DNA of 64,000 bases from Escherichia phage vB_EcoS_VAH1, in the sequence record MK373792.1; one strand, given 5' to 3'. Positions 12,899 to 59,453 of this stretch are shown one piece after another; position 1 is the stretch's first letter; each line of letters begins with the position of its first letter. The notes under the pieces are model-generated. The model made no database searches, was not told where the DNA came from, and saw only the letters and a list, made by a program, of their open reading frames with translations. Both the position numbers and the translations under genes were made by a program.

Positions 12899-13497
12899 TT
12901 ACTCTTCGTTGTGCTCCTCGGATTGAGGTAACTGCGTTTTATTATATTGCTCAGATCGATATTTTGCCAAGATTTCAATACGTTTATGGATTTCCTTGCT
13001 ATCTAGATAGATATTTTTGTTGTCTTTTACCATCTCGTCGATTTCATCTATTGAGAAGAACGGATAGTAGACATCTAGCATCATATCTTCTACGAACTTG
13101 TTGTAAGATTCATAGGCTTTCTTGATTTCTTGACCTTTCTCACAGAACCCACCAGAGAACGTATGTCCCATTAGCGTAGCATGTGGATGTACTACCCATC
13201 CATGACAAGATAGGAAAATTGTGCAGTAAGCAGAAGCACTAGGACCAATCAGGTGTCCTATAACTGTTCCACGGCAATTAGCAATTAAGTTAGATAACTG
13301 TGCAGCGGTATCAACATAGCCACCAGGGCCATTAATCATCAGATTAATTTCGTCGTCCTCATTTGCCTGCATAAGTACCATTGATAAATCACGGTATTCA
13401 TCCGGCGGACCAAGTTCTTCATCAAAGAAAAAGGTATACTCGTTAGATTGGCGAATGGAGTGAAACAGGTTAGTCTTTTCTTTTTTTTATTAGTCAT
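12899..13497 (-). CDS. ClpP-like serine peptidase (S14), reading frame interrupted at an A8 run
   Basis: INGPGGYVD, GPSASAYC, HPHATLMGHTFSGG resemble ClpP; ATG with AAGGA RBS at 13495-13497 is in a different frame from the domain (from 13486 down). Confidence 0.6.
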
Positions 13498-13509
13498 AGC
13501 GATCCTTGA

Positions 13510-14261
13510 TTATCCAACTAGTGGTTCTAGCTCTAAGTCACAGAAGTTATACACTTCTAGTTTAAGGTTATTGATACCATCGAATTTATTAACTAATTCG
13601 TGAGTAATATATTTTGCAGGAATACCACTTTCAGATGGATGATCTGATTTAATAGTGAACTTCTGCTCAGCGGGCACTACATTTACTAGTAAAGAATCCA
13701 TATCTAAATGGTTCGTTTCTCTGAGTAACTCTCCTTCATTGGGGAATCTCACATCTGTTATTACGGCGACATCTGGGTCGTCTTTAGCGATGGATTGCTC
13801 CAGAATTATGAGCCAAATGCGTTCATGTACCAGCTGCCTTCCTAGCTCTGTTCCTACGAGCTGTAACATTTTTCTCGGAGAAATAAATAAACTATAGAGT
13901 CCGTCTTCTTTATTCTCTGAGATAAGTTGTTGAGGATTAAGATATTTTTCCTCAAAAATCGGCCAAACGTACGAGAAGTCTTCAAACTTATCGATACCGT
14001 ATTTAAACCATACGTCTCTAGCTCGCTCCAATTGAGATTGTGTGACCGTAAACCATTGGTCAATCTCTTTCCCCTGCGCTCTCCTAGAAACTCTGGAGTT
14101 ACACCGAGGATTACGGATGCAAGTTCATAAACGGGCTTAGCAAAACTGTAACGACGGGGTAAACGCGTTGGATACGTGTCATTACACCAATCGATAATTA
14201 ATTTTGCAACAGTGTCTTTTCCAGAACCAGCCTCACCATGCAGACCTACTAATACTGACAT
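13510..14261 (-). CDS. deoxynucleoside monophosphate kinase, split into two overlapping frames
   Basis: N-part (track 13854..14261) has Walker A GEAGSGKDT; C-part (track 13510..14031) has ITDVRFPNE and SDHPSESGIP as in T4 gp1. Confidence 0.6.
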
Positions 14262-14614
14262 TAATCTTTCCTATTGTTAATGGGTGGATAGTAAACTAAG
14301 CAACGTTTTTCTTGTAAATCTTGGCGATAGAAGCAAACCATACTAGTCAGTCGTGAGATATATGAATATTCTGCCTCGCGGCATTTTGCTAACATATTCC
14401 AATCTTTATATGGTACAACAACTACTACGCCATCTTCGCCATTTGTAGCTAATTTCTTTTCGAATTTGAAATCAAAGCTACAAGGCTGAAGTCCTTTAGG
14501 CCAATCCACATGGGCTGTTGGTAGCTCATGTGTAGGTTCTGGCTTTATTTCTTGTGCACAGCCTGTGATTGTGATTGTGGCTGCGAGCAGTATTCCAAGT
14601 TTTATTTTGTGCAT
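14261..14614 (-). CDS. lipoprotein (lipobox ITGC), Pro-rich after the Cys
   Basis: MHKIKLGILLAATITITGC signal; possible o-spanin or exclusion lipoprotein. Confidence 0.55.
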   Translation of the reverse strand: MHKIKLGILLAATITITGCAQEIKPEPTHELPTAHVDWPKGLQPCSFDFKFEKKLATNGEDGVVVVVPYKDWNMLAKCREAEYSYISRLTSMVCFYRQDLQEKRCLVYYPPINNRKD

Positions 14615-14689
14615 CTACGCACCTCATAATGTGTTTCTATGTATTGTTCCACTTCTACTGGAGAAACATTGAAAAACTCTGTACTTCCA

Positions 14690-15301
14690 CTAAAACCCCA
14701 CATAACTGCATCTTTTATTTTTATAGATACTATGTAGGTCAGCTTCGATCTTAGCTGTTTCTTCCTTAGAACCCTTGCCACAAATATAGTAAGATGATAC
14801 TCTCAGGTCTTTAAAACCACTACAAGACTTAACTTCTAGAAGTCTTTTCTGCACATTCTTACTTATACCTATTTTTATGCCCTTATCGGAAACAAATATG
14901 TATAAAAATCCTTGTGTATCCCAAGCTGTTTTGGCACAATTTGGGCACCCACTATGGTGTAAAACGTGGTTAGTGGTTGTTTCCCACTGATGGGAACATG
15001 TATTACATAAAAACTTTAGCTTAGAAGTAGAATTAGTATATTCACTTAGTAATACGATTTTTCTAGGACTGAGGAGTGAGTTAATCCTGTCTTTGGTTAA
15101 CTTTTCATTGCCTGCACATTTTGGGCATCCTCTACCTTTATTTCTGACATTTGTAGGGGCTGTTAACCATGTATTAGAGCATATAAGACACTTAAATTGT
15201 GTCTTTGTCTTATTATGTTCATATTCCCCAACTAATCTTACTGTCCTACCTTGAGCTTCTAAGTCTTTATTAAAGATTTCTTTATTTATTTTTACGCTCA
15301 T
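14690..15301 (-). CDS. zinc-ribbon repeat + T5orf172 (GIY-YIG-like) protein
   Basis: Two CxxC...GCPxC ribbons then YIFVSDKGIKIGIS; same architecture as 46060..46731. Confidence 0.6.
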   Translation of the reverse strand: MSVKINKEIFNKDLEAQGRTVRLVGEYEHNKTKTQFKCLICSNTWLTAPTNVRNKGRGCPKCAGNEKLTKDRINSLLSPRKIVLLSEYTNSTSKLKFLCNTCSHQWETTTNHVLHHSGCPNCAKTAWDTQGFLYIFVSDKGIKIGISKNVQKRLLEVKSCSGFKDLRVSSYYICGKGSKEETAKIEADLHSIYKNKRCSYVGF

Positions 15302-15707
15302 CCCTACAGTACTCCAAGCTACCAGAAAGACATGCTAATCTTTCCTCGAACTCCTTACTCTGCTTTTTAGCAATTAATGTAACCAATCCAGGCTTTGCAG
15401 CTATAATATCTTGACGACTAAGTGCTTTATCAAGCTGGGAGATCTTCTTATCAAGATCTTGTTGAGAAATATTATGGAAAGTGAAATATTGATTCATACG
15501 TGTTTCACGTTGTTCACTTTCAACTTTAATCTTGTTTAAGGAGGTTTCTAGAGTAGAGATCTTATTAGTTGCTGCCGCGAGATCCCCTGCTAAAGTTTCC
15601 ACCTTATTTACTAGGTGATAAGCACCGAATCCGATGCCTATCGCCAAACCAGCTCCCAGGATATACCATTTACCTTGCCATAGAGAACTAATAAAGTTTT
15701 TTATCAT
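15282..15707 (-). CDS. N-terminal TM + coiled-coil protein (i-spanin-like)
   Basis: TM WYILGAGLAIGIGFGAY then heptad-rich region. Confidence 0.4.
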   Translation of the reverse strand: MIKNFISSLWQGKWYILGAGLAIGIGFGAYHLVNKVETLAGDLAAATNKISTLETSLNKIKVESEQRETRMNQYFTFHNISQQDLDKKISQLDKALSRQDIIAAKPGLVTLIAKKQSKEFEERLACLSGSLEYCRDERKNK

Positions 15708-16384
15708 CTTTTCATATTCCTGAATGACGTAACCGTATCAAATCCATGTGCTGCTAGGCGGTCTTTATCTGATACAGTAATCATATCAGGCTCACCAGTT
15801 CCTAGTACACCGAAGATATACTGTTCGAGAACTTGGTGCAAACGGTATAAGTTACTTTCAATTTCCTGCCACGGAATACCTGATAGGTGTAGACGCGGAT
15901 TAATTATAACCTTGAAGTATTTATTGTTATCTTTATCATTTGGAACTAATGAATCTAGAACTGCTAACGGTACTCTTAGCTCAGATAAGGCTTCTTTAGC
16001 CTTCGGGGTAACTTCTTCTTGCCACGATAAGATAGACTCTTTTGGCTTCCCTCTATTTATGTCTAGCAAAGAAAACCCTGTTGACCACCCATTCTCCTCT
16101 AAAATTTCTAACGCCTCGTCCAGGCTGAAGGTTTTTACTTGGGTATCTAGCACGTCAATGTGGTATAACCAGTAAATCTCTCCGGCTAGGAAGAAAGGCA
16201 AAATTTTAAAGTAGCCAATCTTTCCCTCGATACGAGCAATCCTACGTTCTTGCATGATCATATAGTTGCCATCATCTGGGGCTTTTATTGTTAGCTCTTC
16301 AGTTTTACGTTCCCAAACATGATCTGCATCGAATAAACTGTTCTGCAAATCATACACATCTGCAAATTTAGAAATGATTCTCAT
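15704..16384 (-). CDS. hypothetical protein
   Basis: 226-aa ORF. Confidence 0.45.
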   Translation of the reverse strand: MRIISKFADVYDLQNSLFDADHVWERKTEELTIKAPDDGNYMIMQERRIARIEGKIGYFKILPFFLAGEIYWLYHIDVLDTQVKTFSLDEALEILEENGWSTGFSLLDINRGKPKESILSWQEEVTPKAKEALSELRVPLAVLDSLVPNDKDNNKYFKVIINPRLHLSGIPWQEIESNLYRLHQVLEQYIFGVLGTGEPDMITVSDKDRLAAHGFDTVTSFRNMKR

Positions 16385-16538
16385 ATTTAATCCTCTTGCC
16401 TCAATCTATGAATATATTATACAAAAGTTTGGGCATCTATGCAACTAAAATTTTATTACAAAAATAGCCCAGTCGCAAAAGTGCAGGCTGGGCTTTGTCA
16501 TTATTTGCTTTTGCTAGTAAGTTGACTTAGTGTCAATC

Positions 16539-16919
16539 TTATGTAATATTAGTTTCTCTAGCTTTGCGTAGTACCCCTGCATTTCTCCATAACTTAATAT
16601 CGTCTACTGTTTCTTTATAAGGAGCTATGGTAAAACCTAGTGGGCCAGCACTAAATAATCCTAAGAATCCTATTGCACGCATATAGAATAAACATTCTTC
16701 GCCTGTCATTTCTTCAACTGCTTTTCTTTGTTTTTCGTTTTCAAACTCGTGATCCTTGTTGTCTATACGAAGGTGTTTAATGAACCATTCAGCAGAATAT
16801 TCATCTAAGTGTCTAAGTATGGCTACTGCATACCCAGCACCAATTAAAAACCAAGTGGTAACAAGAATTAATACTATAGTCATATCATCTCCAGTTAAGG
16901 TCAGCGACCAACTCACCAC
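16539..16919 (-). CDS. membrane protein
   Basis: Two TM helices. Confidence 0.4.
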   Translation of the reverse strand: MVSWSLTLTGDDMTIVLILVTTWFLIGAGYAVAILRHLDEYSAEWFIKHLRIDNKDHEFENEKQRKAVEEMTGEECLFYMRAIGFLGLFSAGPLGFTIAPYKETVDDIKLWRNAGVLRKARETNIT

Positions 16920-16993
16920 TTACCGCACTAAGGGGCACGACTCCCTTATCCGTAACAGTTGCAGGTGACGCAACTCGGTCCTACGCGAGTTCT

Positions 16994-17278
16994 TTAATTA
17001 TTCTGCATTTCTGCTTTAAATTTTTTCATATTACGGGTTTTTCGGTAATAGAAAAATACAGATGTTGGGCCTAAAAGAATGTCTATAATAAATATTGCAG
17101 ATCTAGCACACCTGAGCAACGTTTTATCATCAAGAGGTGCTAGGTCTGATGGACGTGTTTTATGTACAACATATAAGATCACATCTTTATTCTTGGAGAT
17201 GAATAAATCATCTATTAGACTATAAATAGCAACCACAGAGCCGATGACGAACCAAAGAGCAAATGGAGAAACAATCAT
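16994..17278 (-). CDS. membrane protein
   Basis: TM helices. Confidence 0.4.
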   Translation of the reverse strand: MIVSPFALWFVIGSVVAIYSLIDDLFISKNKDVILYVVHKTRPSDLAPLDDKTLLRCARSAIFIIDILLGPTSVFFYYRKTRNMKKFKAEMQNN

Positions 17279-17571
17279 TTCAGATCCTTTTCATTAATTA
17301 GAATATTAGTAAACAGAGGGGCAAATCCTAAACTCATAGTAGGTCCAAATGTTTTCATGGCTATCCATAACTGCATAGTAATCATGCCATCTTTAATTTC
17401 TGGATCTTTGTATTCCCCAATACGGGTTTTGGCGAAAGCCACTATATCTGGATTATTTTTATTTTCCTGAATATAGTCATGCCAAAATTGTGTATTCTCA
17501 CTACGTAGGAATGTTAAAATATCCTTAGTTGCTGGAATCTGCACTGTGCTATTGATGTTTAGCTTTTTCAC
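17275..17571 (-). CDS. hypothetical protein
   Basis: 98-aa ORF. Confidence 0.4.
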   Translation of the reverse strand: MKKLNINSTVQIPATKDILTFLRSENTQFWHDYIQENKNNPDIVAFAKTRIGEYKDPEIKDGMITMQLWIAMKTFGPTMSLGFAPLFTNILINEKDLK

Positions 17572-17968
17572 GTTCTTCTCTCCTACGTTTGCATTCTTTC
17601 ATCATATGGGCTGCTACAACTTCATGGTAGTAGTCATTAATGTTATCTTCTGGCAAGAAATGCTTAATAGTCTCTAGCTGACAAATAACTCGATGAAGAT
17701 GGTTATTTGGTAGGCATAATTTCATACCCGCAACAAACCCAGAGAAGCCTGGAATACTGAACATGGGTTGGGCTTCTACTCTACCTTCAGAGTTGATATT
17801 AAGCTCAATTGAGATACCCATTTTCATGTTATAAAGCTGGCAGTATTCCCCGTTACCGGACCTTGACCAAACAGTGAAGTCCTCATCAATTTGATCTTGG
17901 ATTTCTGTAATTGCAAATTTAATTCTAGGATCTAAATTATTCATCTTCACCTTCAAAGTCGCAATCAT
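17549..17968 (-). CDS. hypothetical protein
   Basis: 139-aa ORF. Confidence 0.4.
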   Translation of the reverse strand: MIATLKVKMNNLDPRIKFAITEIQDQIDEDFTVWSRSGNGEYCQLYNMKMGISIELNINSEGRVEAQPMFSIPGFSGFVAGMKLCLPNNHLHRVICQLETIKHFLPEDNINDYYHEVVAAHMMKECKRRREEREKAKHQ

Positions 17969-18347
17969 AACGACAAGTAAAAGAACTAGAGCTATTAGTA
18001 CGTTGAGTAGTTATCTCACCACGTTTGCTAACAGTAACAGCCGGAGTAGAGAAGTTTTTATTAGTATATATTTCTACTTTGCCGTTACGTTCCTTAACAT
18101 CACGCACTTTACCATATTCAGTAATGATGCCATTTTGTTGGACTTTAACATTCCCGTTTTTCATAAAAACTTTAGTAGATGCTAGAGAACTGAAACTAAC
18201 TGCCGAAACCATCAGTGCAATAATAAACTTATTCATCAGTATCTTCCTCACTACAGTCACGGCATACATCATAATCATTGAAGGAATGTTCATGAGCTTC
18301 ACACCACCAAGAACAAGAATCACAGAGGAATATTTCGGTTTTCTCAA
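17937..18347 (-). CDS. secreted protein (signal peptide; start probably internal MNKFIIAL)
   Basis: Hydrophobic signal-like segment ending ...SLAS. Confidence 0.4.
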   Translation of the reverse strand: MRKPKYSSVILVLGGVKLMNIPSMIMMYAVTVVRKILMNKFIIALMVSAVSFSSLASTKVFMKNGNVKVQQNGIITEYGKVRDVKERNGKVEIYTNKNFSTPAVTVSKRGEITTQRTNSSSSFTCRYDCDFEGEDE

Positions 18348-18510
18348 GTGCTTGGCCTAAAAGATCATCAGCTTCCTCAGCAGTAATCTTCAACCCACAT
18401 ACATCTGCCACACGTTCTTTAATTAAGCGACCTGCCTCATGATAAGACATACAGGTTCCAACAACACTATGCTCGACAACGTGAATAGCACAGTCTAGAC
18501 GAGTTTTCAT
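18229..18510 (-). CDS. Cys-rich hypothetical protein
   Basis: CDSCSWWC...CRDC; preceded by promoter cassette and GAGAGAGG RBS. Confidence 0.45.
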   Translation of the reverse strand: MKTRLDCAIHVVEHSVVGTCMSYHEAGRLIKERVADVCGLKITAEEADDLLGQALEKTEIFLCDSCSWWCEAHEHSFNDYDVCRDCSEEDTDE

Positions 18511-18540
18511 TTCAAACCTCTCTCATCAATTTATAAATAT

Positions 18541-18569
18541 ATTATAACAAGAAAAGAGAGGTTTAGCAA
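18541..18569 (-). promoter_or_regulatory. T5-type early promoter (one of ~20 minus-strand cassette copies)
   Basis: Minus strand TTGCTA - 17 nt - TATAAT, leader AUAAAUUGAUGAGAGAGG then ATG of 18229..18510. Confidence 0.6.
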
Positions 18570-18586
18570 ATGAATTATTTCAGAAA

Positions 18587-18934
18587 TTAGTCGTAGCACC
18601 ACCATAACCCACGCTTACGCATGTCATGATCGCGATTATAGTCGTAATTTTCTGGATCTTTCATCACGCGGTGGAGTTCTTGACGATTTCCTTGACGAAC
18701 CATTTTATTAGAGTGCCACTTAACATTCTTACTAACAGAATTCCAGCTATAACCATCCTTTTTCTCATTACGAATGGTTGCTTCTTCCATTTCCTGTTCT
18801 ACCTCATCCCAGGATTTAGCATAAGTAACACGAATGTAGTAGCCACTTGCTTTGAGGAAAGTATATCCCTGGGTGTAATTAGCTTTAGACTTCCACCACT
18901 GATCACCAGATTGTTTACGATAAGTACGGCTCAT
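18587..18934 (-). CDS. hypothetical basic/aromatic protein
   Basis: 115-aa ORF. Confidence 0.4.
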   Translation of the reverse strand: MSRTYRKQSGDQWWKSKANYTQGYTFLKASGYYIRVTYAKSWDEVEQEMEEATIRNEKKDGYSWNSVSKNVKWHSNKMVRQGNRQELHRVMKDPENYDYNRDHDMRKRGLWWCYD

Positions 18935-19055
18935 ATTACCTCCATTAAGTCTTTTGAATTAACCTAATGTGGGTGAATTTTATTATACATAAATTATTTA
19001 CCTGTATATAGAAAAACCCCAGACTACTTATTCAATAGCTGGGGTTTGTTATTAA

Positions 19056-19370
19056 TTACAGATCGGGGCGTTCATCTTCGAAACAGCCTGAGCTAATATC
19101 TTCTCCGAATCCTACGAAGCCATCAAATTCATCATTTGAAATACCCATAATCATTGCTTCCATTTTTCTAATCTCCGAAATTTTCATGCCTGCTTTACTA
19201 TTCTTAAAGTGTTTGCGAGGATTCCCGCACATCCAACAAGAACAGATACAAGGAGTAGTAGTGATAATACCTAACCGTTTAGGGCTTTCTTCATGTGGGA
19301 AGACTGTCCAGTATTTCTTGCGGTTGTTCTTCACACGTTGCCGGTGATGACGTCTTAATGCTCGATCCAC
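19056..19370 (-). CDS. Cys-rich hypothetical protein
   Basis: TPCICSCWMCGNP cluster. Confidence 0.4.
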   Translation of the reverse strand: MDRALRRHHRQRVKNNRKKYWTVFPHEESPKRLGIITTTPCICSCWMCGNPRKHFKNSKAGMKISEIRKMEAMIMGISNDEFDGFVGFGEDISSGCFEDERPDL

Positions 19371-19451
19371 ACATTTCTCCTAAAACTTGGGAGATAAATG
19401 GAGTTTGCTCGACTACCTCATGTAGTTCGGAGAAATCGTACCCAAACCCCA

Positions 19452-19821: not shown

Positions 19822-19834
19822 AGATCTCCTGTTT

Positions 19835-19910: not shown

Positions 19911-20005
19911 TTATGTTTTACTAGGCTAAGTAAGTATTCTTTATACTCTTTAGACCAACTAGCTTTTTTAAACTTTCCTGGACGCATAGTCTTAATTCCT
20001 AGATT

Positions 20006-20082: not shown

Positions 20083-20097
20083 ATTAAAATATTTACA

Positions 20098-22278: not shown

Positions 22279-22515
22279 AATTGAAAACTCGCAGGGTTAG
22301 CGAAACCATCCTCAATTAGCATGTTCTATAATACTAATCAAGTTATCTCCTATTGCACGCAGCTCAAGACGAGTACGAATTTTCAATTGTGGCGGCTCTC
22401 AGAAACTCTTCTATTCTAGCCTCAGAAGCTTACCCCCGAACGCATGTCGGGAAAGTCTTTCCAAGCGCATCAAATAGCACCGTTACACTTTGAGCCATTG
22501 ATGTATCAAGGAATA

Positions 22516-30367: not shown

Positions 30368-31360
30368 GTGTCAAAAATGACAGAAGAAGTAGCTAAGAGT
30401 CCTGAGACCGTCGCTAGCGTTGCAGCAGAACTGCACCGTCACGAGGAATCAGATAAGAAAAAGTGGGAGAAGGTCAGAGCCTACGAAGAAAAACATCGTG
30501 AACACGATGATGAAGAAGATGACGATGAGCATTGTCATAAATATGGAAAACATAAAATGCAAGAACCAGTAAACGTATTTACTAGTGGCTTCCCTGGCCT
30601 ACTTGGTGGTTACCCAGCAAACGCAAGTGCTTTCGGTGGCGAAGGTATGGGACTATTCGGAGCTATCCTAATCGGTGCTCTATTAACAGGCGGGTTCGGT
30701 GGTTTCGGTGGATTCGGTGGACGTGGTGTAGTTGGTGATGGTACCGCAGTTGATGCAGTACTTCAGAACCAAGATACCGCTAGTATTCTAGCAGCTATTA
30801 ACACTACTCGTACAGAAGCTAACCAGGGTACTGGAGCTGTTTTAAGCGCAGTTAACAATGGTTTTAGCCAGACATCCCAAAACCAGAGCCGTGATACTCA
30901 GTCTGTACTAACTACGATCTATGGTACAGGTGCTAATCTGTCTAATCAGATCTGCCAGGAAACTCGCAACGTTATTCAGGGTCAGTTCGATCTTTCTCGC
31001 CAGATTGATCAATCTTTCGCAGCTAACCAGATAGCTCGTGCACAAGATAAGTTTGATTCTGCACAGATCGCTTTCCAGCAGACTTTACAAACTAATAACC
31101 AGTTTGCCGCTGTTCAGGCTCAGATGTGTGCTAACCAGAACTCTCTGGAACGTCAGATCGCTGAATGTTGCTGTGAACTTCAGACTGCGATCGCTGGTGT
31201 AACTACTGCGCGTATTCAGGATGAGTTAGATGCATGTCGCCTACGTGAAGCAATCGCTGCGGGTAACGGTGCTAACGGTCAGGTAATTAATCAAATCGCT
31301 GTAAGTCTTGGTGCTATCACTCAGACTCTGGCTGGTCTGCAGGCTAAACTGCCGGCTTAA
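30368..31360 (+). CDS. acidic/His-rich N-domain + glycine-zipper TM segment + Gln/Asn/Ala-rich helical C-domain protein; function unknown
   Basis: DDEEDDDEH; GLFGAILIGALLTGGFGGFGGFGG; Q/N/T-rich tail with CCC cluster; codon usage unlike neighbours. Confidence 0.55.
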   Translation: MSKMTEEVAKSPETVASVAAELHRHEESDKKKWEKVRAYEEKHREHDDEEDDDEHCHKYGKHKMQEPVNVFTSGFPGLLGGYPANASAFGGEGMGLFGAILIGALLTGGFGGFGGFGGRGVVGDGTAVDAVLQNQDTASILAAINTTRTEANQGTGAVLSAVNNGFSQTSQNQSRDTQSVLTTIYGTGANLSNQICQETRNVIQGQFDLSRQIDQSFAANQIARAQDKFDSAQIAFQQTLQTNNQFAAVQAQMCANQNSLERQIAECCCELQTAIAGVTTARIQDELDACRLREAIAAGNGANGQVINQIAVSLGAITQTLAGLQAKLPA

Positions 31361-32002: not shown

Positions 32003-32018
32003 AGAACCAAACAATAAA

Positions 32019-32053
32019 GCCCCTAAGTCTTTCGACTAGGGGCTTTTCTTTTA
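32019..32053 (+). terminator. rho-independent terminator closing the plus-strand island
   Basis: GCCCCTAAGTC...GACTAGGGGC hairpin followed by TTTTCTTTT. Confidence 0.6.
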
Positions 32054-32060
32054 TCTTAAA

Positions 32061-32097
32061 TACAGAAAAGCCCTGCGCTCTCCAGGAAACGCAGGGC
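32061..32097 (-). terminator. rho-independent terminator for the SPFH gene (convergent)
   Basis: GCCCTGCG...CGCAGGGC 8-bp stem with T-run on the minus strand. Confidence 0.6.
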
Positions 32098-46059: not shown

Positions 46060-46731
46060 ATGGTAAGAAAGAAAATAACTACAGAAGATGTGAACTTAGC
46101 ACTTGCTCCCAGAGGAATAATTATGCTAAGCACGTATATATCAGCTAAATCCAATGCTATATTTAAGTGCTCTAATGGGCATAGTTGGGAGGCTAGAGTA
46201 GATAATGTAAAAGGTGGGAGAGGTTGCCCTTATTGTGCTAGTCGTACTTTAGATCTTAAAGAGGTAAATGAATCCTTAGCTGCTCGTGGAATAAAGATGG
46301 AAGGTAAATACATCAATTCTAAGAGTAAAATTATGTTCAGCTGTGAGAATAATCATAGGTGGGAGTCTACACTTGATAGTGTTAGAAACCATAGTTCTGG
46401 TTGTCCTATATGTTTATTAGAGAAGGATAATTATCCTACTAACGTATATATTTTAATAAGTAATGTGGGAACCAAAATAGGAGTGTCTAGCAGAACTAAA
46501 GATAGACTCAGAGATATTAAAACTTCTTCTAACATACATGATTTAAAAATATTTAAGGAATATAGCTTTTCAGATAGATCAAAAGCTATACGTATTGAAA
46601 GAGAGGTCCATTTACAGTTTAAGGAATATAATTGTCAGTACAAAGATTTTGATGGTGCTACAGAATTTTTTAATATTGAGCCAGAAGTAGTAGCAAGGTT
46701 TATTGAGGAAATAATTAATGACAGAGAATGA
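46060..46731 (+). CDS. zinc-ribbon repeat + T5orf172 (GIY-YIG-like) protein
   Basis: CSNGHSWE...GCPYCA and CENNHRWE...GCPIC ribbons; C-terminus matches 888..1268 and 14690..15301. Confidence 0.6.
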   Translation: MVRKKITTEDVNLALAPRGIIMLSTYISAKSNAIFKCSNGHSWEARVDNVKGGRGCPYCASRTLDLKEVNESLAARGIKMEGKYINSKSKIMFSCENNHRWESTLDSVRNHSSGCPICLLEKDNYPTNVYILISNVGTKIGVSSRTKDRLRDIKTSSNIHDLKIFKEYSFSDRSKAIRIEREVHLQFKEYNCQYKDFDGATEFFNIEPEVVARFIEEIINDRE

Positions 46732-52511: not shown

Positions 52512-55379
52512 TTGACAGTAACAGTTGTTCTATTCTTTCTGAATAGTCCTAAAGAAAACTTATTTCATTTCCAACACAGGAGTATTGTTGTGTTTTCAAT
52601 CCTACAAGGTCATGCAGGATTTCATCGCGATTTAGCCACGGGCAATTGGCGAGAAGTTAAAGCAGAAGACTATCTTTTTGCTAAAAGATTTTCCTCAAAG
52701 CATCCTGAAGGTAAACCAGCTTCAATGCCCTTCAAGTTTGATGTAATTGATGAAGTTGATCCTCAAACCCTAGTAGAAATGCTTCCTCTTATGAGACGTT
52801 TAACGTCTGACCCTCATATCGTTGCGGTACGAGGTCGATGTCTTGCACCTAAAAATAATGTGCGACGTAAGAAGGGCAACTTTAATGTATCTAACCCAAG
52901 TCATATAATTGCAATGGACGTGGATGGTATTGTAGATACAGGTGGTTGTAACAAGTTTGATCTTGTTGGCATGGCTCGACACATTATTAGAATGTTAAAT
53001 AGTATTAGTGAGGATATGTTTCCTCTTGATGCAGGGTTTATCGCTCATGCATCGTCTTCGGCTGGGCTAAAACCAGGTATCCGAATGCACTTAATACTAG
53101 AATCTAATGTTAAAGTAACTCAGGGTCAAATCAAGTTCTTATTTACATCTATCAATGAAAGTAGTAGACAAAAGTATGGCTTTGATATTGCCGACTTAGC
53201 TTATTACTCTTCCGTACAGCTCCATTACTTTGCAGATCCTTTATTTATTGATGGTATAGTCGATCCGTTTAAAGCGGAGGGTGCTTCACGTCTGGTATTT
53301 GTTAAAGGCTCAAAAGTAAATTTACCTAATAATCTAGTTGACTATGAAACAACTAGAGGAGAGTTTAAAGAGGAATTCTACTCTTTACTCGATCAAATTA
53401 AAGGTAAAAAAGCTGCCTCTGATAAAGTAGAAGAAACTATCAGCGAACTAGAAGAAGCTGAGGATGGAGTGTATCTACGTATTATTCCTAAACTCTATCA
53501 CAGGGCTTTAGAGGATGGTGTTGATTTTGCATGGCTAGAAAAAGAAATCCGTCCAGCCTTATCAGAATATATTGCAACTAAAGATAATAGTCGTAATATT
53601 CAAGACTACTTTAATAACGGTCGTAAACAGGCTCTAAAAGCGTTTGTTAATAATTCTAAGCGTGAGATCCCTGAAGTATTAAAAGGTATCCCCCTTAAAA
53701 AGCTAGAAACTAATTCACTAGAGACCGACAACTTCTTGAAATTAAATACTGTACCACCAGAAGGCTATATGACTTTTGTAAAAGCAAGTCTAGGCACAGG
53801 TAAAACCACGGCGGTTGTGCGTTGGTTAGATTCAGGGGTTATTAAAGGTAATTTCTTAGCAATTACCAATACTAGAGCACTGGTATCTTCAAATGCTAAG
53901 AAATTTAGTGCAGGACAATATGATAAGTCTGTAGATATGCTTAATTTTAAGCGTGGTGCTATTGACCGTATGTCCACAACTATTCACTCTTTGCATAAAT
54001 TCAAGAGTTTTATTGGTCAAATTGATGCAATCTTTATCGATGAATGTGATGCAGTAATGAATGACCTATTATTCGCCCCGGTTGTTAAGCAACGTCGTGA
54101 ATGTATTCAGGTTCTTCGGGATATTCTTGCAACTGCAAAAATCATTATATTATCTGATGGTGATATTAGTGCAGAAACAATTGAAGCATATGGTTCTTTG
54201 ATTGAGTTTGATAAACCGGTCGCATTTTATAATCATCATCGTAAGATGTTGTCAAAAGCTCATGCTTATGAGTTCCCTGATGAATCTAGTATTTGGGTTG
54301 CACTTCAAACATCACTAGAGATGGGTGAGAAATCTATTCTAGTATCTGATTGCGGCCCAGATGAGCTGAATGAGAAAGGTATGGCATTACGTCGTAATAC
54401 GGGTGCATTAGTTAAAGAAATCCATTCAAACTCTACATCTGATGTGGATATTAGACGTATTCTGGATTACACAACTAATGAGCTAATTGATCAACAAATT
54501 GATTGCTTATTATGTAGTCCATCCGTAACGAGTGGTGTTGACTTCAACTATTTTGATAACGTATTCGTTATTACTAGAACCAGTAACCAGGCGCCGAACA
54601 TGCGTTTTCAAGCAATCAGGCGCGACCGTGGTGCTCAGAATATCTATTATTTTATTGATAAATCCACTAGTGGATTCTCCGCAGGTTCTGAGCAATATAA
54701 CATTGATGAAGGTTGGCTCGAATTAGCACAGCAGTTATATGCACGTCGTAGGGAATTAGAGTCTAGGAACTATACTAGTACCTTACGCTATTACTTGCTT
54801 GATCAGGGAGCAACTATTGATATTTTCAGTGAAAGCTGGGGAACTATTGAAGGTGCTGGTAAAGAGTACACAGAAGAGCGAATCAAAGCTATTCTGCACT
54901 CAACTCCTGATTATTGTGCTCCACGTCATGCGGATGCGTATGAAGCTAAACTACTTCTTGTTCGCTATTATCATCTTGAGTCTATTAAAGATGTAACAGT
55001 TGAGCATGTTGAACAATATATCAAAGATAAGCCGAATGATCGAGCTGCATTCTTCCATAAGATGCACGAGATGTTCTGGGAAGATATTAAGAAGTGTTCA
55101 AATGTGACCATTAAACCATTCATAGAAGCTCTGAAAGGTAAGAAGAAGGACTTCTTCCTTAAAACAGGTCAGAGTGCTAACCCAAAATATGCTAGAATGT
55201 ATCTTGGTATGATGGGTATTGGTAAAGATATGAACACGGAGAATATCGTAGACTGGTACAGAACCTATTGTAAAATCGAATGTATGCCAATTCCTTTCAA
55301 ATTTATGACAGAGGAAGAGAAGGCTATGGCAGAAGAAGCAATGTCAGAGCTAGGTGCTAGAAATGACAGTGAAGAATAA
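52512..55379 (+). CDS. replication origin-binding-protein-like SF2 helicase (probable true start GTG ~52589 after AGGAG)
   Basis: Walker A ASLGTGKTT, Walker B IFIDECD, helicase motifs in C-half. Confidence 0.55.
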   Translation: MTVTVVLFFLNSPKENLFHFQHRSIVVFSILQGHAGFHRDLATGNWREVKAEDYLFAKRFSSKHPEGKPASMPFKFDVIDEVDPQTLVEMLPLMRRLTSDPHIVAVRGRCLAPKNNVRRKKGNFNVSNPSHIIAMDVDGIVDTGGCNKFDLVGMARHIIRMLNSISEDMFPLDAGFIAHASSSAGLKPGIRMHLILESNVKVTQGQIKFLFTSINESSRQKYGFDIADLAYYSSVQLHYFADPLFIDGIVDPFKAEGASRLVFVKGSKVNLPNNLVDYETTRGEFKEEFYSLLDQIKGKKAASDKVEETISELEEAEDGVYLRIIPKLYHRALEDGVDFAWLEKEIRPALSEYIATKDNSRNIQDYFNNGRKQALKAFVNNSKREIPEVLKGIPLKKLETNSLETDNFLKLNTVPPEGYMTFVKASLGTGKTTAVVRWLDSGVIKGNFLAITNTRALVSSNAKKFSAGQYDKSVDMLNFKRGAIDRMSTTIHSLHKFKSFIGQIDAIFIDECDAVMNDLLFAPVVKQRRECIQVLRDILATAKIIILSDGDISAETIEAYGSLIEFDKPVAFYNHHRKMLSKAHAYEFPDESSIWVALQTSLEMGEKSILVSDCGPDELNEKGMALRRNTGALVKEIHSNSTSDVDIRRILDYTTNELIDQQIDCLLCSPSVTSGVDFNYFDNVFVITRTSNQAPNMRFQAIRRDRGAQNIYYFIDKSTSGFSAGSEQYNIDEGWLELAQQLYARRRELESRNYTSTLRYYLLDQGATIDIFSESWGTIEGAGKEYTEERIKAILHSTPDYCAPRHADAYEAKLLLVRYYHLESIKDVTVEHVEQYIKDKPNDRAAFFHKMHEMFWEDIKKCSNVTIKPFIEALKGKKKDFFLKTGQSANPKYARMYLGMMGIGKDMNTENIVDWYRTYCKIECMPIPFKFMTEEEKAMAEEAMSELGARNDSEE

Positions 55380-55596
55380 AAAATGGGAAACAAGGAAGTT
55401 TCCAGTAAAAGAACGTAAAGTTCCTATTTATGATACTTCGGAAAAGCTATGTAGGGTGGTACCATCTAGATTAGCTGGCATCCCTAACATATCCGAGTGG
55501 TTACTTAAACAACGGAGGACTAGCGTATCCCTTCGCATAGGGTTTGAGTTAGATAAAGTATATGCTGAACTTTCTTCTTTGCTCAAGGAACAATAA
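55354..55596 (+). CDS. hypothetical small protein
   Basis: 80-aa ORF. Confidence 0.3.
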   Translation: MLEMTVKNKKWETRKFPVKERKVPIYDTSEKLCRVVPSRLAGIPNISEWLLKQRRTSVSLRIGFELDKVYAELSSLLKEQ

Positions 55597-56168
55597 TGTT
55601 TATAAGAATTCCCGAATTTCCTGACTATGCAGTGAATGAAAATGGAGAGGTGTACTCTTTTCTCTCCTACAAGTTTCTTACTCCAGGTCAAAATACTGCT
55701 GGGTACTTACAAGTTAATTTAATGAAGGACGGCACCCCTATAAATGTGAGGGTGCATAGGTTAGTAGCTTATTGTTTTGGGCTACTTCCTGGGTTAGAAT
55801 CAGAATTGGTAGTAGACCATATAAACGATGATAAGTTAGATCCTAGACTATCTAACTTGCAGGTATTAACCTACAGAGCTAATGCAATAAAATTTCATAA
55901 TAAAAATTGGAGAGAACATCCAGATTTCCTAGTAGAAATTAAGAAATTAGAAAGTATGGGCATAACTAAAGCAGCTGCATCTTATAGGCGCAGGGCTATG
56001 TTTAAATATATTGTGGCTGTTCCCTCTAGTGATACTCTAACCTTAGAATTAATAGAATCTACATATCAGAAAACCAATTCTTGGGGAAAAACTGCTAGGG
56101 CTCTAGGCTTTAACAGTGCTCCTGCTATTAGATACAGGTATAATAAGCTGAAAGCAGCTTCTTTATAA
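55596..56168 (+). CDS. HNH homing endonuclease (NUMOD4/HNH_3-type)
   Basis: IPEFPDYAVNENGEVYS...GYLQVNL...HRLVAYCF...VDHINDDKLD..SNLQVL. Confidence 0.7.
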   Translation: MFIRIPEFPDYAVNENGEVYSFLSYKFLTPGQNTAGYLQVNLMKDGTPINVRVHRLVAYCFGLLPGLESELVVDHINDDKLDPRLSNLQVLTYRANAIKFHNKNWREHPDFLVEIKKLESMGITKAAASYRRRAMFKYIVAVPSSDTLTLELIESTYQKTNSWGKTARALGFNSAPAIRYRYNKLKAASL

Positions 56169-56174
56169 ATTTTC

Positions 56175-56234
56175 TTGCTTTACGATGAATTTTTCTGTAT
56201 AATAGATTCATAAATTTGAGAGAGGAGTTTAAAT
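56175..56234 (+). promoter_or_regulatory. T5 P_N25-like early promoter and leader
   Basis: TTGCTT(56175-56180) - 17 nt - TATAAT(56198-56203), leader ATAAATTTGAGAGAGGAGTTTAAAT then ATG; matches the classic T5 N25 promoter as recalled. Confidence 0.8.
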
Positions 56235-56939
56235 ATGGCTGGTTCTCGCAGAAAGAAACATATCCATGAAATCCCGGATGAAGTCTTTAAAAAAGTTATA
56301 GAGCATCTGGAGAACGGTGGTACTAAGAAAGCAGCATGTGAAATGCTCGGCGTATCATCCAACCCAACTATGGAAAGGATGATAGAAGAGTGGCAAGACC
56401 GCCAGATCCAAGTTGCCGAGATGAAGAAAAAGAAACGTGGTACACTCATTGAAGGTATTGAGTTGGCCAACGTTATTGAACAGTATCTATCTGGTGATTC
56501 TTTTGAAGAGATTGCCGATCGTAATTACCGCTCTGTAGCAATGGTTAAATCTGTTCTGGAACGCTATGGTGCTCTGCTTCGTTTGAACGATATTGTAGAT
56601 CCATTGAATCCACCAATTATTCCTGATGATGCTGTAGCAGAAGAATTTGAGGTAGGTGAGCTTGTTTGGGTTCCTGGATACCAGTGTATCGGTGAAATCA
56701 AAAAAGCAATGGATAACCCTGTTGGTTGTTACCGTGTATGGCTTCTATCAGAAGGCAAACAACAGAATGTTCATTATATGAATTATGAATTAGCTTCTGT
56801 AAAGCATTTGGAAAAGCTAGGGGTAGACGTAAAATCTCTGGGGTATAAATGGTCCCGGGAAGAAGTTATCACACTGATTAACGAAGCTGTTAAGGCCGCC
56901 TTGAAACTTGATAAAGAAAAAGGAAAACGCCGTGAGTAG
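56235..56939 (+). CDS. early protein with HTH-like N-terminal region
   Basis: KKAACEMLGVSSNPTMERMIEEW helix-turn-helix-like; directly behind P_N25-like promoter. Confidence 0.5.
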   Translation: MAGSRRKKHIHEIPDEVFKKVIEHLENGGTKKAACEMLGVSSNPTMERMIEEWQDRQIQVAEMKKKKRGTLIEGIELANVIEQYLSGDSFEEIADRNYRSVAMVKSVLERYGALLRLNDIVDPLNPPIIPDDAVAEEFEVGELVWVPGYQCIGEIKKAMDNPVGCYRVWLLSEGKQQNVHYMNYELASVKHLEKLGVDVKSLGYKWSREEVITLINEAVKAALKLDKEKGKRRE

Positions 56940-57183
56940 ACTAACTGATTTACTTAAAGATGGGGAAGTAAAAACACTATATCGTAGAAGCTGGGATAAC
57001 GATAATAACGGCTTAGTGTTACTAACTTTAGATGCTGACTCAGATGTAGCTACTCAGCATACCTGGGTAGCCGGTAACTATCCATATAGCGAGGTTGTTT
57101 CATTAACAGTATGCGAAGCTATTGCAGACGATTGGGAGGTTGCCAGCATCGATGATATGCTTGCTGTTGGCCTGGTGGAGTAA
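56908..57183 (+). CDS. hypothetical protein
   Basis: 91-aa ORF. Confidence 0.4.
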   Translation: MIKKKENAVSRLTDLLKDGEVKTLYRRSWDNDNNGLVLLTLDADSDVATQHTWVAGNYPYSEVVSLTVCEAIADDWEVASIDDMLAVGLVE

Positions 57184-57286
57184 CTACTTAAAAATTTCAG
57201 TTGCTTAATCCTACAATTCTTGATATAATATTCTCATAGTTTGAAAGAACTATTCTGTTTAATTCTTAATTAAGGAAATATAAAAT

Positions 57287-57697
57287 ATGACTACTCCAAC
57301 TCAGTGGACTGATGAACTATTCGAAAAAATGTCTTCCGAATACGTTGCTCGTATGGAGCAATTCCCAGAGGATGAACGTCCGAATGTTAGCATGGAAATT
57401 GTTAGCGAAATTGCCCAGGAAAATGGTGTAACTCCGAACGGTTTTCGTATGAAGCTGACTAAAGCAGGTTTGTATATCAAGAAAGCTGCTGGCTCTGCTT
57501 CTAAATCTAGCGCATCTACTGGAGAAAAAGCTTCCGGTGGTTCTCGTACCTCCAAAGCTCAAGCCCATGCCGACCTTCGTTCAGCTTTCTCTGATGCTGG
57601 CTTAGCACCAGATTTTCTGGATGATGCAATTATCGACAAACTGACCGGTAAAGCGGCTGCTCATCTGGCAGAAGCAATCCGAGCTATCACTAAGTAA
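57287..57697 (+). CDS. hypothetical protein
   Basis: 136-aa ORF behind TTGCTT-17-TATAAT promoter at ~57203-57240. Confidence 0.45.
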   Translation: MTTPTQWTDELFEKMSSEYVARMEQFPEDERPNVSMEIVSEIAQENGVTPNGFRMKLTKAGLYIKKAAGSASKSSASTGEKASGGSRTSKAQAHADLRSAFSDAGLAPDFLDDAIIDKLTGKAAAHLAEAIRAITK

Positions 57698-57734
57698 TAT
57701 TTAGATAAATCCACCAACAAAAGGAACTATAGCT

Positions 57735-58031
57735 ATGACTAAAGCTGAAATTATTGCACAGTGCGAAAAATTTGGTGAGTTTTATCTTCATTACGAGAAA
57801 CTTCGTCAGAAAGGAACCACGTACCTTCAGGGTACAATGGAATTTGATCCGGCCCAAGATAAATATCTGGCTGAGCGTATTAAACGTGAACGTATTCGTA
57901 AAGCGAAAGATGATGAAATCCTTGTCTTCTCTCGTACTAATGATAGCTTCCGTTTTATTCCTGTCGAGAAAGTTCGTCGTGTGACTAGCCTCCAATCAGA
58001 GTTAGATCGTGCTTCTCCAGTAGGCCGATAA
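57735..58031 (+). CDS. hypothetical protein
   Basis: 98-aa ORF. Confidence 0.4.
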   Translation: MTKAEIIAQCEKFGEFYLHYEKLRQKGTTYLQGTMEFDPAQDKYLAERIKRERIRKAKDDEILVFSRTNDSFRFIPVEKVRRVTSLQSELDRASPVGR

Positions 58032-58042
58032 GAAAACAATTA

Positions 58043-58066
58043 GCCCCTATATGGGGCTTTTTGTGT
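58043..58066 (+). terminator. rho-independent terminator
   Basis: GCCCC-TATAT-GGGGC hairpin + TTTTTGTG. Confidence 0.6.
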
Positions 58067-58081
58067 ATTTGGGATATGTAA

Positions 58082-58390
58082 ATGAGCGAACAGGTAAATC
58101 AAAACTATGAAGGACACGTTGATGACCAGTCCATCATACTTTGGGAGAAGGAGGGAGAACAAGTAAGATTAACAGTATCTGAATTTCGTGGGAATCTATA
58201 CATGGGTATTCGTTACTGGCTTCTTGATATTAATGATGAATGGTTTCCAACGAAATCTGGCTTCTCTTTTCCTTACACCCTAGAAACAACATCACAGCTT
58301 TTCTATGCGTTTACACAGATTCTTAGCGAATCTGAGGTTTTACATGAAGTACAGAAACGAGCTGAAGAACTCAAAGCCAAGAATGCCTAG
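58082..58390 (+). CDS. hypothetical acidic protein
   Basis: 102-aa ORF. Confidence 0.4.
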   Translation: MSEQVNQNYEGHVDDQSIILWEKEGEQVRLTVSEFRGNLYMGIRYWLLDINDEWFPTKSGFSFPYTLETTSQLFYAFTQILSESEVLHEVQKRAEELKAKNA

Positions 58391-58477
58391 TTCTTGGCTT
58401 TTTCTTTATAAATGTATTTGCTTTCAACTCAGTTTTGTTATATAATATTTATATAAATTAATGAGAGATATAAATAA

Positions 58478-59303
58478 ATGACCAATGTAAAAGAATTTAT
58501 TAAACGCTGTCAAGAAGCATATTATCAAGGTATGTCTTTAATCTCTGATGAGGAATATGATTGCCTAGTAAAACGCTTCCCGTTAGAGGAAGAGATCGGG
58601 CCTAAGGGTGATATTCCACATCTGTATCGTATGTATTCTTTACAGAAAGTTTACTATAACCGTGGAGATAAACCACCATTCAATCCTTTAGGTCAGGTGG
58701 AAACCGATAAGTTAGATGGTTGTGCAATTTCTCTGCTATATATTTAATGGCGAATTTGTTCAAGCACTAACTCGTGGTAATGGTATTCTGGGGAATGATG
58801 TCACAAGCAACGTAAGATTGCTGAACATCCCTAAAAAGATTTCCCAAAAAGTACCTACTCAAATCACTGGTGAAGTTCTAATTACAAAAGAAGTAGAAAA
58901 TAAACGTAACTTTGCCTCTGGTGCTATTAACCTCAAAGATAGTGATGCTTTTGTACAACGTATCGGGGAAGGTGGTTTAATCTTCGTTGCATACGGTATC
59001 CAGTGTTCTGCTGAATCTGTAGGTATTACAGAAGCGTATTTAAAAGATATGCTTTGGCTAGAGAATGAGAACTTCTTAACAGTTGTTATGTGCGTTCCTC
59101 CTTTAAAATGGATTCCGACGGACGGTAAAGTTGTTCGTATTAATGACAACAACAAATTCTTCCGGGAAGGCTGGACTAATAAATTCCCTCGTGGGGCATT
59201 CGCTATTAAAGAGGATGAAGAAGGCGAGATTACAACTCTTACTAAAGTTGAATGGCAGGTAGGGGCTTCTGGTAAAGTTCCAGTTGGTTATTTCGAACCG
59301 TAA
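58478..59303 (+). CDS. lig: NAD-dependent DNA ligase, adenylation part, internally frameshifted (track ORFs 58478..58747 and 58716..59303)
   Basis: KLDG adenylation lysine in first ORF; TRGNGILGNDVTSN and onward in second ORF; junction at CTATATATTTAATGG. Confidence 0.75.
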
Positions 59304-59309
59304 TAATTG

Positions 59310-59453
59310 ATTGATGCCACAATTGTTAAAGCGACTCTTAATAACGTTGATTATATTAACTCTCTCGATCTAGAGATCGGTTGCCAGATTCGAGTGATTC
59401 GTGCTGGTGGTGTAATCCCGTGCATAGTAGAGCGAGTATACGATTATACATAA
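59310..59453 (+). pseudogene. ligase OB-fold remnant, in frame after tandem TAA TAA stops
   Basis: [44 protein letters not shown] matches the LigA OB domain (ATLHN...RAGDVIP) but has no conventional start. Confidence 0.5.

What the first reader, a model, noticed from the sequence alone, without database searches (positions are those of the whole stretch)
12899..59453. Three homopolymer-linked frame breaks in one window: sequence errors or real recoding?
The ClpP-like gene (A8), the dNMP kinase (G4/A3) and the ligase (TTT in a TA-rich stretch) all break at short homopolymers. That pattern is what long-read or pyrosequencing indels look like, so the simplest reading is consensus error. If the sequence is correct, the phage carries several decayed or recoded early genes, which would be unusual for essential nucleotide-metabolism functions.
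Basis: inference. Interest (0 to 1): 0.45.

Follow-up and report, generated by a model that had tools for sequence, protein, structure and literature searches.

The report
Probable assembly errors splitting phage genes
Four conserved genes of a T5-like phage (holin, Clp-like protease, dNMP kinase, DNA ligase subunit A) are interrupted by small insertions and deletions found in no other public T5-like genome, and these are most likely local errors in the deposited assembly, not gene decay or recoding.

Summary
The window is Escherichia phage vB_EcoS_VAH1 (GenBank MK373792, a Tequintavirus). All three reported breaks are present, but the description is incomplete.

- **clp:** the A8 run arises from loss of a G (A6-G-A2 becomes A8).
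- **dnk:** one base is lost at a G4A4/G5A3 run.
- **ligA:** it carries seven private indel events plus an in-frame TAATAA, not just the extra T. Three more indels lie in the promoter region just downstream.
- **holin:** a fourth gene, just outside the stated coordinates, is also split (T5 becomes T4).
- **ligA/ligB:** the two-gene ligase arrangement is normal for T5.

None of these variants occurs in 42–355 related GenBank genomes per site, or in 17–19 IMG/VR contigs. Private changes are mostly indels: 3 indels to 2 substitutions at holin–clp–dnk, and 10 to about 5 in ligA. Relatives differ almost only by substitutions. Downstream reading frames are otherwise intact, the phage is viable, and a sibling genome from the same study is clean.

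Consensus or assembly error is the best reading (about 0.75). Raw reads were not available, and it is unexplained why the errors sit in only two patches of an 850× assembly. Programmed recoding is very unlikely, although the clp and dnk sites happen to form in-phase A_AAA_AAG and G_GGA_AAG heptamers.

The parts
12087..12742 (-). T-type holin gene, split into an 89-aa N-terminal fragment (12473..12742, QBQ80658 'putative holin') and a 101-aa C-terminal fragment (12087..12392, QBQ80657 'hypothetical'). The cause is a -1 deletion: plus-strand A4 at 12477-12480 where relatives have A5.
   Evidence: alignment; all 6 covering relatives have A5. (Pfam Phage_holin_T profile positions 2-96 and 128-233 fall in separate ORFs). 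(exact fragments found only in VAH1). (0 of 42 GenBank matches share the variant).
12899..13497 (-). ClpP-like protease gene (599 nt; 600 nt in relatives), frameshifted at codon 6. The coding strand reads A8 (13488..13481) where relatives have A6-G-A2. The remaining 160-aa ORF (12899..13381) is intact. The site reads A_AAA_AAG in phase.
   Evidence: (CLP_protease). (0 of 215 records share it). (0 of 19 IMG/VR contigs). (QBQ80659, 157 aa, 'Clp protease').
13510..14261 (-). dNMP kinase gene dnk (752 nt; 753 in relatives), split into 135-aa and 173-aa ORFs by loss of one base at G4(14074-14071)A3(14070-14068). The site reads G_GGA_AAG in phase. The deleted column is a G/A polymorphism among relatives.
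   Evidence: (DNMK). (0 of 355 full-length matches share it). (0 of 17 IMG/VR contigs; the one zero-gap hit is an unrelated chance match). (QBQ80661).
14076..14080 (-). Conserved T5 major single-strand nick motif (minus strand A|GCGC, nick between 14080 and 14079), 9 nt 5' of the dnk deletion.
   Evidence: the T5 annotation places a major interruption at 22336/7 inside dnk. (the motif is conserved in the window). Only this one break lies near a nick motif.
58478..59453 (+). ligA (NAD-dependent DNA ligase subunit A; 972 nt / 323 aa in relatives), broken into ORFs of 89, 195 and 48 aa. Lesions: +T (TTT 58743-45), -A (59088), +A (59105-08), -AAC (59278/9), -G (59300) with T>A and +T (59312) giving TAA TAA at 59301-06, and -A (59445/6) removing the normal stop.
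   Evidence: (adenylation and OB-fold domains in separate ORFs). (QBQ80735 and QBQ80736 found only in VAH1; the 323-aa form is on up to 74 contigs). (no record shares the variants).
59454..59516 (+). Continuation of the ligA indel patch into the ligA-ligB intergenic promoter region: -5 (59485/6), -T (59497-59500), +TA (59512-16).
   Evidence: T5 annotates promoters P-K28b and P-K28a here.
59645..60424 (+). ligB (NAD-dependent DNA ligase subunit B, 259 aa), intact. The natural second half of the T5 split ligase.
   Evidence: QBQ80737; 259 aa as in relatives. No private indels after 59516.

Best explanation
The frame breaks are local consensus or assembly errors in the deposited genome of Escherichia phage vB_EcoS_VAH1 (MK373792), not features of the phage. 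Two short stretches of the record were called badly. One is 12.47-14.07 kb, with three isolated single-base deletions in holin, clp and dnk. The other is 58.74-59.52 kb, a 770-bp patch with ten indels in ligA and the adjacent promoter region. The real phage most likely encodes the same full-length holin (218 aa), Clp-like protease (199 aa), dNMP kinase (250 aa) and LigA (323 aa) as its relatives.

Shown here: the variants are in the sequence, they are unique to this record, they are mostly indels, and they are clustered.

Inferred: that they arose during sequencing or assembly. Candidate causes are an unpolished contig-end junction, a local coverage trough, or mixed reads from pooled barcoded libraries.
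For: 1. Source. Eight fragment proteins match VAH1 entries exactly and occur on that single contig only.

2. Uniqueness. No related record carries the variants: 0/42 (holin), 0/215 (clp), 0/355 full-length matches (dnk), 0/182 (ligA +T), 0/258 (ligA -A/+A). Only one record even seeds a match across the TAATAA segment. In IMG/VR the counts are 0/17 and 0/19.

3. Spectrum. The holin-clp-dnk locus has 3 private indels against 2 private substitutions, while 8 relatives differ at 186 columns with essentially no coding indels. The ligA patch has 10 private indel events against about 5 private substitutions, while 7 relatives show 5-12 polymorphic sites per 100 bp and no ligA indels.

4. No secondary decay. 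After each break the rest of the gene is 97-99% identical to relatives in the shifted frame.

5. Patch boundaries. The ligA patch ignores gene boundaries and runs into the promoter region. It contains closely spaced -1/+1 pairs that would serve no purpose in a gene already broken upstream.

6. Same sites in noisy data. MG969412.1 has 28 gap openings, all deletions, in 2.7 kb and lost a base at the same dnk and holin runs. Two records of phage mar004NP2 differ by one A in the same clp A-tract.

7. Viability. VAH1 is a viable, plaque-forming phage (PMC6563267). By established knowledge of T4 gene t, a T-type holin truncated at residue 89 should be lysis-defective.

8. Methods. Each phage was sequenced by PacBio RSII/HGAP3 or by MiSeq alone. 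PacBio libraries were barcoded and pooled 7-8 per SMRT cell. Contigs were re-linearised by hand, and no re-polishing is mentioned. VAH1 has 208 CDS against 178-179 in its three siblings.

9. Control. T5, BF23 and HASG4 show no such breaks under the same scan.
Against: - Reported coverage is 850x, at which either platform normally gives an accurate consensus.
- The platform used for VAH1 is not stated. If it was MiSeq, indel errors of this kind would be unusual.
- The window shows no general homopolymer noise. The other indels that were private against three references proved to be natural variants shared with other phages, or in-frame changes in a divergent region. Some unverified local cause must therefore be assumed.
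- The clp lesion (loss of a G between A-runs) and several ligA lesions are not simple run-length miscalls.
- Raw reads could not be inspected.
Confidence: 0.75

Rival explanations
1. The lesions are real, recent loss-of-function mutations in the sequenced VAH1 stock. The phage would then truly carry frameshifted holin, clp and dnk and a mangled ligA, perhaps tolerated because host functions (LigA, nucleotide kinases, ClpP) substitute. They might have been produced in one or two bursts of localised error-prone repair synthesis, for example primed from the conserved nick 9 nt upstream of the dnk deletion.
For: - 850x coverage.
- The lesions sit in two tight patches and are not scattered as noise would be.
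- All three -1 deletions lie within 1.6 kb on the 3' side of the conserved major nick, on the nicked strand.
- The clp A-tract also differs between two records of another phage.
- Other T5-like records have truncated ligA, namely IME178 and vB_Kpn_3.
Against: - Four conserved genes would have to be inactivated at once, with almost no accompanying substitutions and no secondary decay.
- None of the variants circulates in hundreds of relatives.
- An indel-to-substitution ratio of 2:1 in ligA is not a natural decay spectrum.
- Compensating -1/+1 pairs make no sense in a gene already broken.
- A truncated T-type holin should block lysis, yet the phage forms plaques.
- The second major nick site in the window has no private lesion beside it.
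- The ligA patch has no nick motif.
Confidence: 0.2
2. The single-base deletions in clp and dnk are real, and full-length proteins are still made by recoding. Ribosomes would slip -1 at the in-phase heptamers A_AAA_AAG (clp) and G_GGA_AAG (dnk), or RNA polymerase would slip on the A8 run. This would restore the ancestral frame. The dnk product would be identical to wild type, and the clp product would differ by one residue.
For: - Both sites are canonical X_XXA_AAG heptamers in the correct phase (sequence).
- A -1 slip gives ...ERRGK|EIDQW... (the wild-type dnk sequence) and MTNKKK|EKTNLF... (wild-type Clp is MTNKKEEKTNLF...).
- Only about 2% of simulated deletions at homopolymers of 4 or more bases create such a site.
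- AGGAG lies 7 nt upstream of the dnk heptamer.
- X_XXA_AAG is the most slippery class in E. coli (established knowledge of dnaX and IS elements).
Against: - No relative needs or has the shift; all are in frame.
- There is no downstream stimulatory structure (z = +0.48 and +0.64).
- Given that the deletions fall in compound purine runs, an in-phase heptamer is expected by chance with probability of roughly 0.1-0.3 (inference).
- The holin site (GTT TTG TAG) is not canonical.
- ligA would need a +1 shift and then meets TAA TAA, which cannot be bypassed.
- Unaided heptamers give only a few percent frameshifting.
Confidence: 0.03

Closest known systems
Indel consensus errors in single-technology (long-read or pyrosequencing) assemblies that create pseudo-frameshifts and split ORFs
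   Same: Private 1-bp indels, mostly where a base is repeated. Genes are split into adjacent ORFs that annotation pipelines then name separately. The rest of each gene is intact. The same runs are hit in an independent noisy draft.
   Different: Errors are confined to two patches and do not scale with homopolymer content across the window. Stated coverage is very high. The ligA patch also includes -3, -5 and +2 events and substitutions, which looks more like an unpolished or low-depth stretch than residual homopolymer miscalls.
dnaX-type programmed -1 ribosomal frameshifting (A_AAA_AAG with an upstream SD-like element and a downstream stem-loop)
   Same: clp has exactly A_AAA_AAG in phase and dnk has G_GGA_AAG in phase. 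A -1 slip would restore the ancestral frame.
   Different: There is no downstream structure. There is no conservation, since all relatives are in frame. The 'recoded' product would simply be the normal protein, not a second isoform.
The natural two-gene NAD-dependent DNA ligase of phage T5 (ligA: adenylation + OB fold; ligB: Zn finger/HhH/BRCT)
   Same: The window keeps the conserved ligA / promoter region / ligB layout, and ligB is intact at 259 aa.
   Different: Only in this record is ligA further broken into three ORFs. One cut falls just after the KxDG motif and another is an in-frame TAATAA before the OB fold.

Membership tests
Sequencing/assembly artefact | The variant is restricted to one record and absent from close relatives and independent assemblies | tested here: met
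   0/42, 0/215, 0/355, 0/182 and 0/258 GenBank records. 0/17 and 0/19 IMG/VR contigs. Fragment proteins occur on one contig only among about 15 billion proteins.
Sequencing/assembly artefact | A change spectrum dominated by indels, unlike natural divergence at the same locus | tested here: met
   3 indels to 2 substitutions at holin-clp-dnk, and 10 to about 5 in ligA. Relatives differ at 186 columns with essentially no coding indels.
Sequencing/assembly artefact | Errors track homopolymers across the whole sequence (generic long-read or pyrosequencing noise) | tested here: not met
   Outside the two patches no unique indels were found. The candidates at 2487-3003, 9508, 30372 and 32001/32025 are natural variants. 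This points to a local cause, not generic noise.
Sequencing/assembly artefact | Read pile-ups contradict the consensus at these sites | not testable with these tools
   No raw reads are available. The platform used for VAH1 is not stated in PMC6563267.
Programmed -1 ribosomal frameshift (dnaX-like) | An X_XXY_YYZ slippery heptamer in the zero-frame phase at the shift site | tested here: met
   clp has A_AAA_AAG and dnk has G_GGA_AAG, both in phase. Not met for holin (GTT TTG TAG). ligA would need a +1 shift.
Programmed -1 ribosomal frameshift (dnaX-like) | A stimulatory downstream stem-loop or pseudoknot | tested here: not met
   The minimum free energy of the 77-79 nt downstream is no better than shuffled sequence (z = +0.48 and +0.64).
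Programmed -1 ribosomal frameshift (dnaX-like) | The frameshift requirement is conserved among homologues | tested here: not met
   All aligned relatives and hundreds of records encode these genes in a single frame.
Pseudogene / real gene decay | Secondary degenerative changes (extra stops, elevated substitutions) downstream of the first lesion | tested here: not met
   holin, clp and dnk are 97-99% identical to relatives after the break, with only 2 private substitutions in 2.2 kb. ligA has many lesions, but they are mostly indels, which does not resemble natural decay.
T5 split NAD-dependent ligase (ligA + ligB) | Separate ligA (about 323 aa) and ligB (about 259 aa) genes with an intergenic promoter region | tested here: met
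   The layout is conserved in T5, BF23, SP15, N5, OSYSP, HdH2 and VSe12. In the window ligB is intact; ligA is present but fragmented.

The most novel reading that the evidence does not exclude
The single-base deletions in clp and dnk (and perhaps holin) are real. VAH1 survives because E. coli ribosomes slip -1 at the newly created in-phase heptamers A_AAA_AAG and G_GGA_AAG, or RNA polymerase slips on the A8 run. This would give enough full-length Clp-like protease and dNMP kinase for growth. It would be a natural example of frameshift mutations being tolerated because they fall on slippery sites, possibly generated by error-prone synthesis primed from the adjacent T5 nick.
Probability: 0.04. 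Interest if true: 0.5.

Novelty: not a real feature. Interest (0 to 1): 0.1.

Why it matters
The main value is as a data-quality flag. MK373792 probably misreports at least four conserved genes, and the resulting fragments have already spread into NCBI nr and UniProt/UniRef as 'putative holin', 'Clp protease', 'putative DNA ligase subunit' and hypothetical proteins. Anyone using VAH1 for comparative genomics, pseudogene counts or recoding screens should treat these loci as unverified. Biologically it would matter only if re-sequencing confirmed the lengths. In that case the in-phase slippery heptamers and the nick-adjacent deletion would be worth an experiment.

Tried and rejected
1. **Generic homopolymer noise across the window: rejected.** Of 31 indels that were private against T5, BF23 and HASG4, those outside the two patches are natural.
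   - 2487-3003 are in-frame indels in a region of 81-83% identity.
   - T7 at 9508 is shared by 2 of 27 IMG/VR contigs.
   - A5 at 30372 is shared by 3 of 18.
   - 32001/32025 are an alignment artefact of a flipped terminator hairpin that HK6 and NR01 also carry.

2. **T5 nick sites as a general cause: rejected.** Only the dnk deletion lies next to a nick motif. The second major nick at about 32079 has no private lesion beside it, and ligA has no motif.

3. **An IMG/VR contig sharing the dnk variant (L033): rejected.** It is an unrelated chance 20-mer match.

4. **nrdD as a further split gene: rejected.** The upstream ORF at 46060-46731 is a T5orf172 / treble-clef endonuclease-like gene, and NrdD is complete.

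5. **The apparent i-spanin break: rejected.** It is caused by a similar endonuclease-like ORF inserted between the i- and o-spanin genes, as in IrisVonRoten.

6. **Stimulatory RNA structure downstream of the heptamers: none found**.

7. **Per-phage sequencing platform: not found**, either in the paper or in its supplements.

8. **Origin of OR896837.1: not found** in the literature.
Full report
**Identity of the window.**
The window is a Tequintavirus (T5-like) early-gene region with 21 tRNA genes. Eight ORF fragments from the broken genes match proteins of Escherichia phage vB_EcoS_VAH1 exactly: QBQ80657, 80658, 80659, 80661, 80735, 80736 and 80737. Each occurs on that one 124,537-bp contig only, among about 15 billion public proteins. 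The record itself (MK373792) is not in the searchable phage collection; the best hits are 96-98% identical.

VAH1 was described by Korf et al. 2019 (PMC6563267). It was isolated from budgie droppings and has 208 CDS, 21 tRNAs and 850x coverage. Its three sibling T5-like phages of about 120 kb have 178-179 CDS.

**Checking the observation.**
All three reported breaks are present.
- clp: relatives read ATGACTAATAAAAAAGAAGAAAAG. The window lacks the G, which fuses A6 and A2 into A8 and shifts the frame at codon 6.
- dnk: relatives read GGGGAAAA or GGGGGAAA, and the window reads GGGGAAA.
- ligA: TT has become TTT at 58743-45.

The picture is larger than reported.
- A reference-ORF tblastn scan of the whole window shows that the T-type holin is also split, by a T5-to-T4 change on the coding strand at 12477-80. 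Pfam places holin profile positions 2-96 and 128-233 in separate ORFs.
- ligA carries six further indel events: -A, +A, -AAC, -G with T>A and +T (producing an in-frame TAA TAA), and -A, which removes the normal stop codon.
- The patch continues with -5, -1 and +2 in the ligA-ligB promoter region, ending at 59516.
- The ligA/ligB split is the conserved T5 arrangement, and ligB is intact.

Applied to T5, BF23 and the sibling HASG4, the same scan finds no breaks in conserved annotated genes.

**Are the variants seen elsewhere?**
No. 81-nt queries centred on each lesion found many related GenBank records but none identical across the lesion:
- 0 of 42 for holin
- 0 of 215 for clp
- 0 of 355 full-length matches for dnk
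- 0 of 182 for the ligA +T
- 0 of 258 for the ligA -A/+A pair

Only one record even seeded a match across the TAATAA segment. IMG/VR gave 0 of 17 (dnk) and 0 of 19 (clp); a single zero-gap hit was an unrelated chance 20-mer.

**Spectrum of change.**
In the 2.2-kb holin-clp-dnk locus the window has three private single-base deletions and only two private substitutions. Eight relatives differ from one another at 186 columns with essentially no coding indels.

In the 770-bp ligA patch there are ten private indel events and about five private substitutions. Seven relatives show 5-12 polymorphic sites per 100 bp and no ligA indels at all. The flanking 1.3 kb has three private substitutions and no indels.

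After each break the rest of the gene is 97-99% identical to relatives in the shifted frame, so there is no secondary decay. Closely spaced -1/+1 pairs in ligA restore the length locally, although the gene is already broken upstream. That fits a mis-called consensus better than selection (inference).

**Independent evidence that these runs are error-prone.**
MG969412.1 is an unannotated 148.7-kb draft with 28 gap openings, all deletions, in 2.7 kb. It lost a base at exactly the same dnk and holin runs. Two records of the same phage, mar004NP2, differ by one A in the same clp A-tract: one gives a 199-aa Clp and the other a 160-aa Clp.

**What does not fit simple noise.**
Outside the two patches I found no unique indels.
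- The cluster at 2487-3003 consists of in-frame indels in a region of 81-83% identity.
- T7 at 9508 and A5 at 30372 are shared with other contigs.
- The 32001/32025 'indels' are a flipped terminator hairpin also present in HK6 and NR01.

The problem is therefore local, and with 850x mean coverage it needs a local cause. The methods offer candidates that I cannot test:
- Each phage was sequenced by PacBio RSII/HGAP3 alone or by MiSeq/SPAdes alone.
- PacBio libraries were barcoded and pooled 7-8 per SMRT cell.
- Libraries were exonuclease-treated or size-selected.
- Contigs were re-linearised by hand, with no mention of re-polishing.

An unpolished contig-end junction would fit the ligA patch. 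A coverage trough at T5's natural nicks could fit the dnk lesion, which lies 9 nt 3' of the conserved major nick motif A|GCGC at 14080|14079. However, the second major nick in the window has nothing anomalous beside it, and ligA has no nick motif, so the nick link does not generalise.

**Recoding.**
The clp and dnk deletions create in-phase A_AAA_AAG and G_GGA_AAG heptamers. A -1 slip would restore the wild-type Dnk sequence exactly, and Clp with one substitution. Only about 2% of simulated homopolymer deletions create such a site.

That null is too generous, however. Deletions, whether biological or technical, concentrate in compound purine runs, where an in-phase heptamer is expected with probability of roughly 0.1-0.3 (inference). 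There is no downstream stimulatory structure and no conservation of a frameshift requirement. The holin site is not canonical. ligA would need a +1 shift and then meets TAA TAA. Programmed recoding is therefore very unlikely. Leaky rescue of real mutations remains a small possibility.

**Verdict.**
The breaks are most likely consensus or assembly errors in one deposited record (confidence about 0.75). Real recent mutations are the main rival (about 0.2), and recoding is a remote third. Only the reads or a few Sanger amplicons can settle it. Interest is low, apart from the warning that artefactual protein fragments from this record are already in nr and UniProt.

Noticed in passing
window 12087-12742 (-): The T-type holin gene is also frameshifted (coding-strand T5 to T4 at 12477-80). 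This fourth broken conserved gene lies immediately upstream of the reported region. The record annotates it as 'putative holin' (89 aa) plus 'hypothetical protein' (101 aa).
   Followed up: yes
window 14076-14080 (-) and ~32075-32079: Both T5 major single-strand nick motifs (CCCTGCGCTCTCC context) are conserved. The dnk deletion is 9 nt 3' of the first one. GCGCY occurs only 13 times on the plus strand in 64 kb.
   Followed up: partly
window 32018-32046: The bidirectional terminator hairpin is inverted compared with T5 and HASG4: CCCCTAAGTCTTTCGACTAGGGG against its reverse complement. Both orientations exist among T5-like phages (HK6 and NR01 share the window's), so this is a natural hairpin-flip polymorphism.
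   Followed up: yes
window 14690-15301 (-) and 46060-46731 (+): Two homing-endonuclease-like ORFs. The one at 46060-46731 lies directly upstream of an intact nrdD and has Pfam treble-clef zinc finger (DUF4379) and T5orf172 domains. The one at 14690-15301 lies between the i-spanin and o-spanin genes, which overlap in T5. It shows a similar zinc-finger motif by eye but was not scanned against Pfam.
   Followed up: partly
L047 (MG969412.1, 90876-97181): This unannotated 148.7-kb 'Salmonella phage' draft is riddled with single-base deletions (28 gap openings in 2.7 kb against BF23). Its dnk, clp and holin are fragmented in the same way.
   Followed up: partly
L048 (OR896837.1) vs L049 (LR027384.1): Two GenBank records of phage vB_Eco_mar004NP2 differ by one A in the clp 5' A-tract (A5 against A6), plus two substitutions in dnk. 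The newer record therefore annotates a 160-aa Clp in place of the 199-aa form. The cause is unknown.
   Followed up: partly
window 59485-59516: The private indels change the spacer of the conserved ligB promoter (TTGACA ... TATACT) from 17 to 18 nt, counted by eye from the alignment.
   Followed up: no
P0011 (IME178 LigA, 199 aa) and P0027 (vB_Kpn_3 LigA, 210 aa): Two other T5-like records also annotate a truncated LigA. The breaks are at different positions from VAH1's.
   Followed up: no
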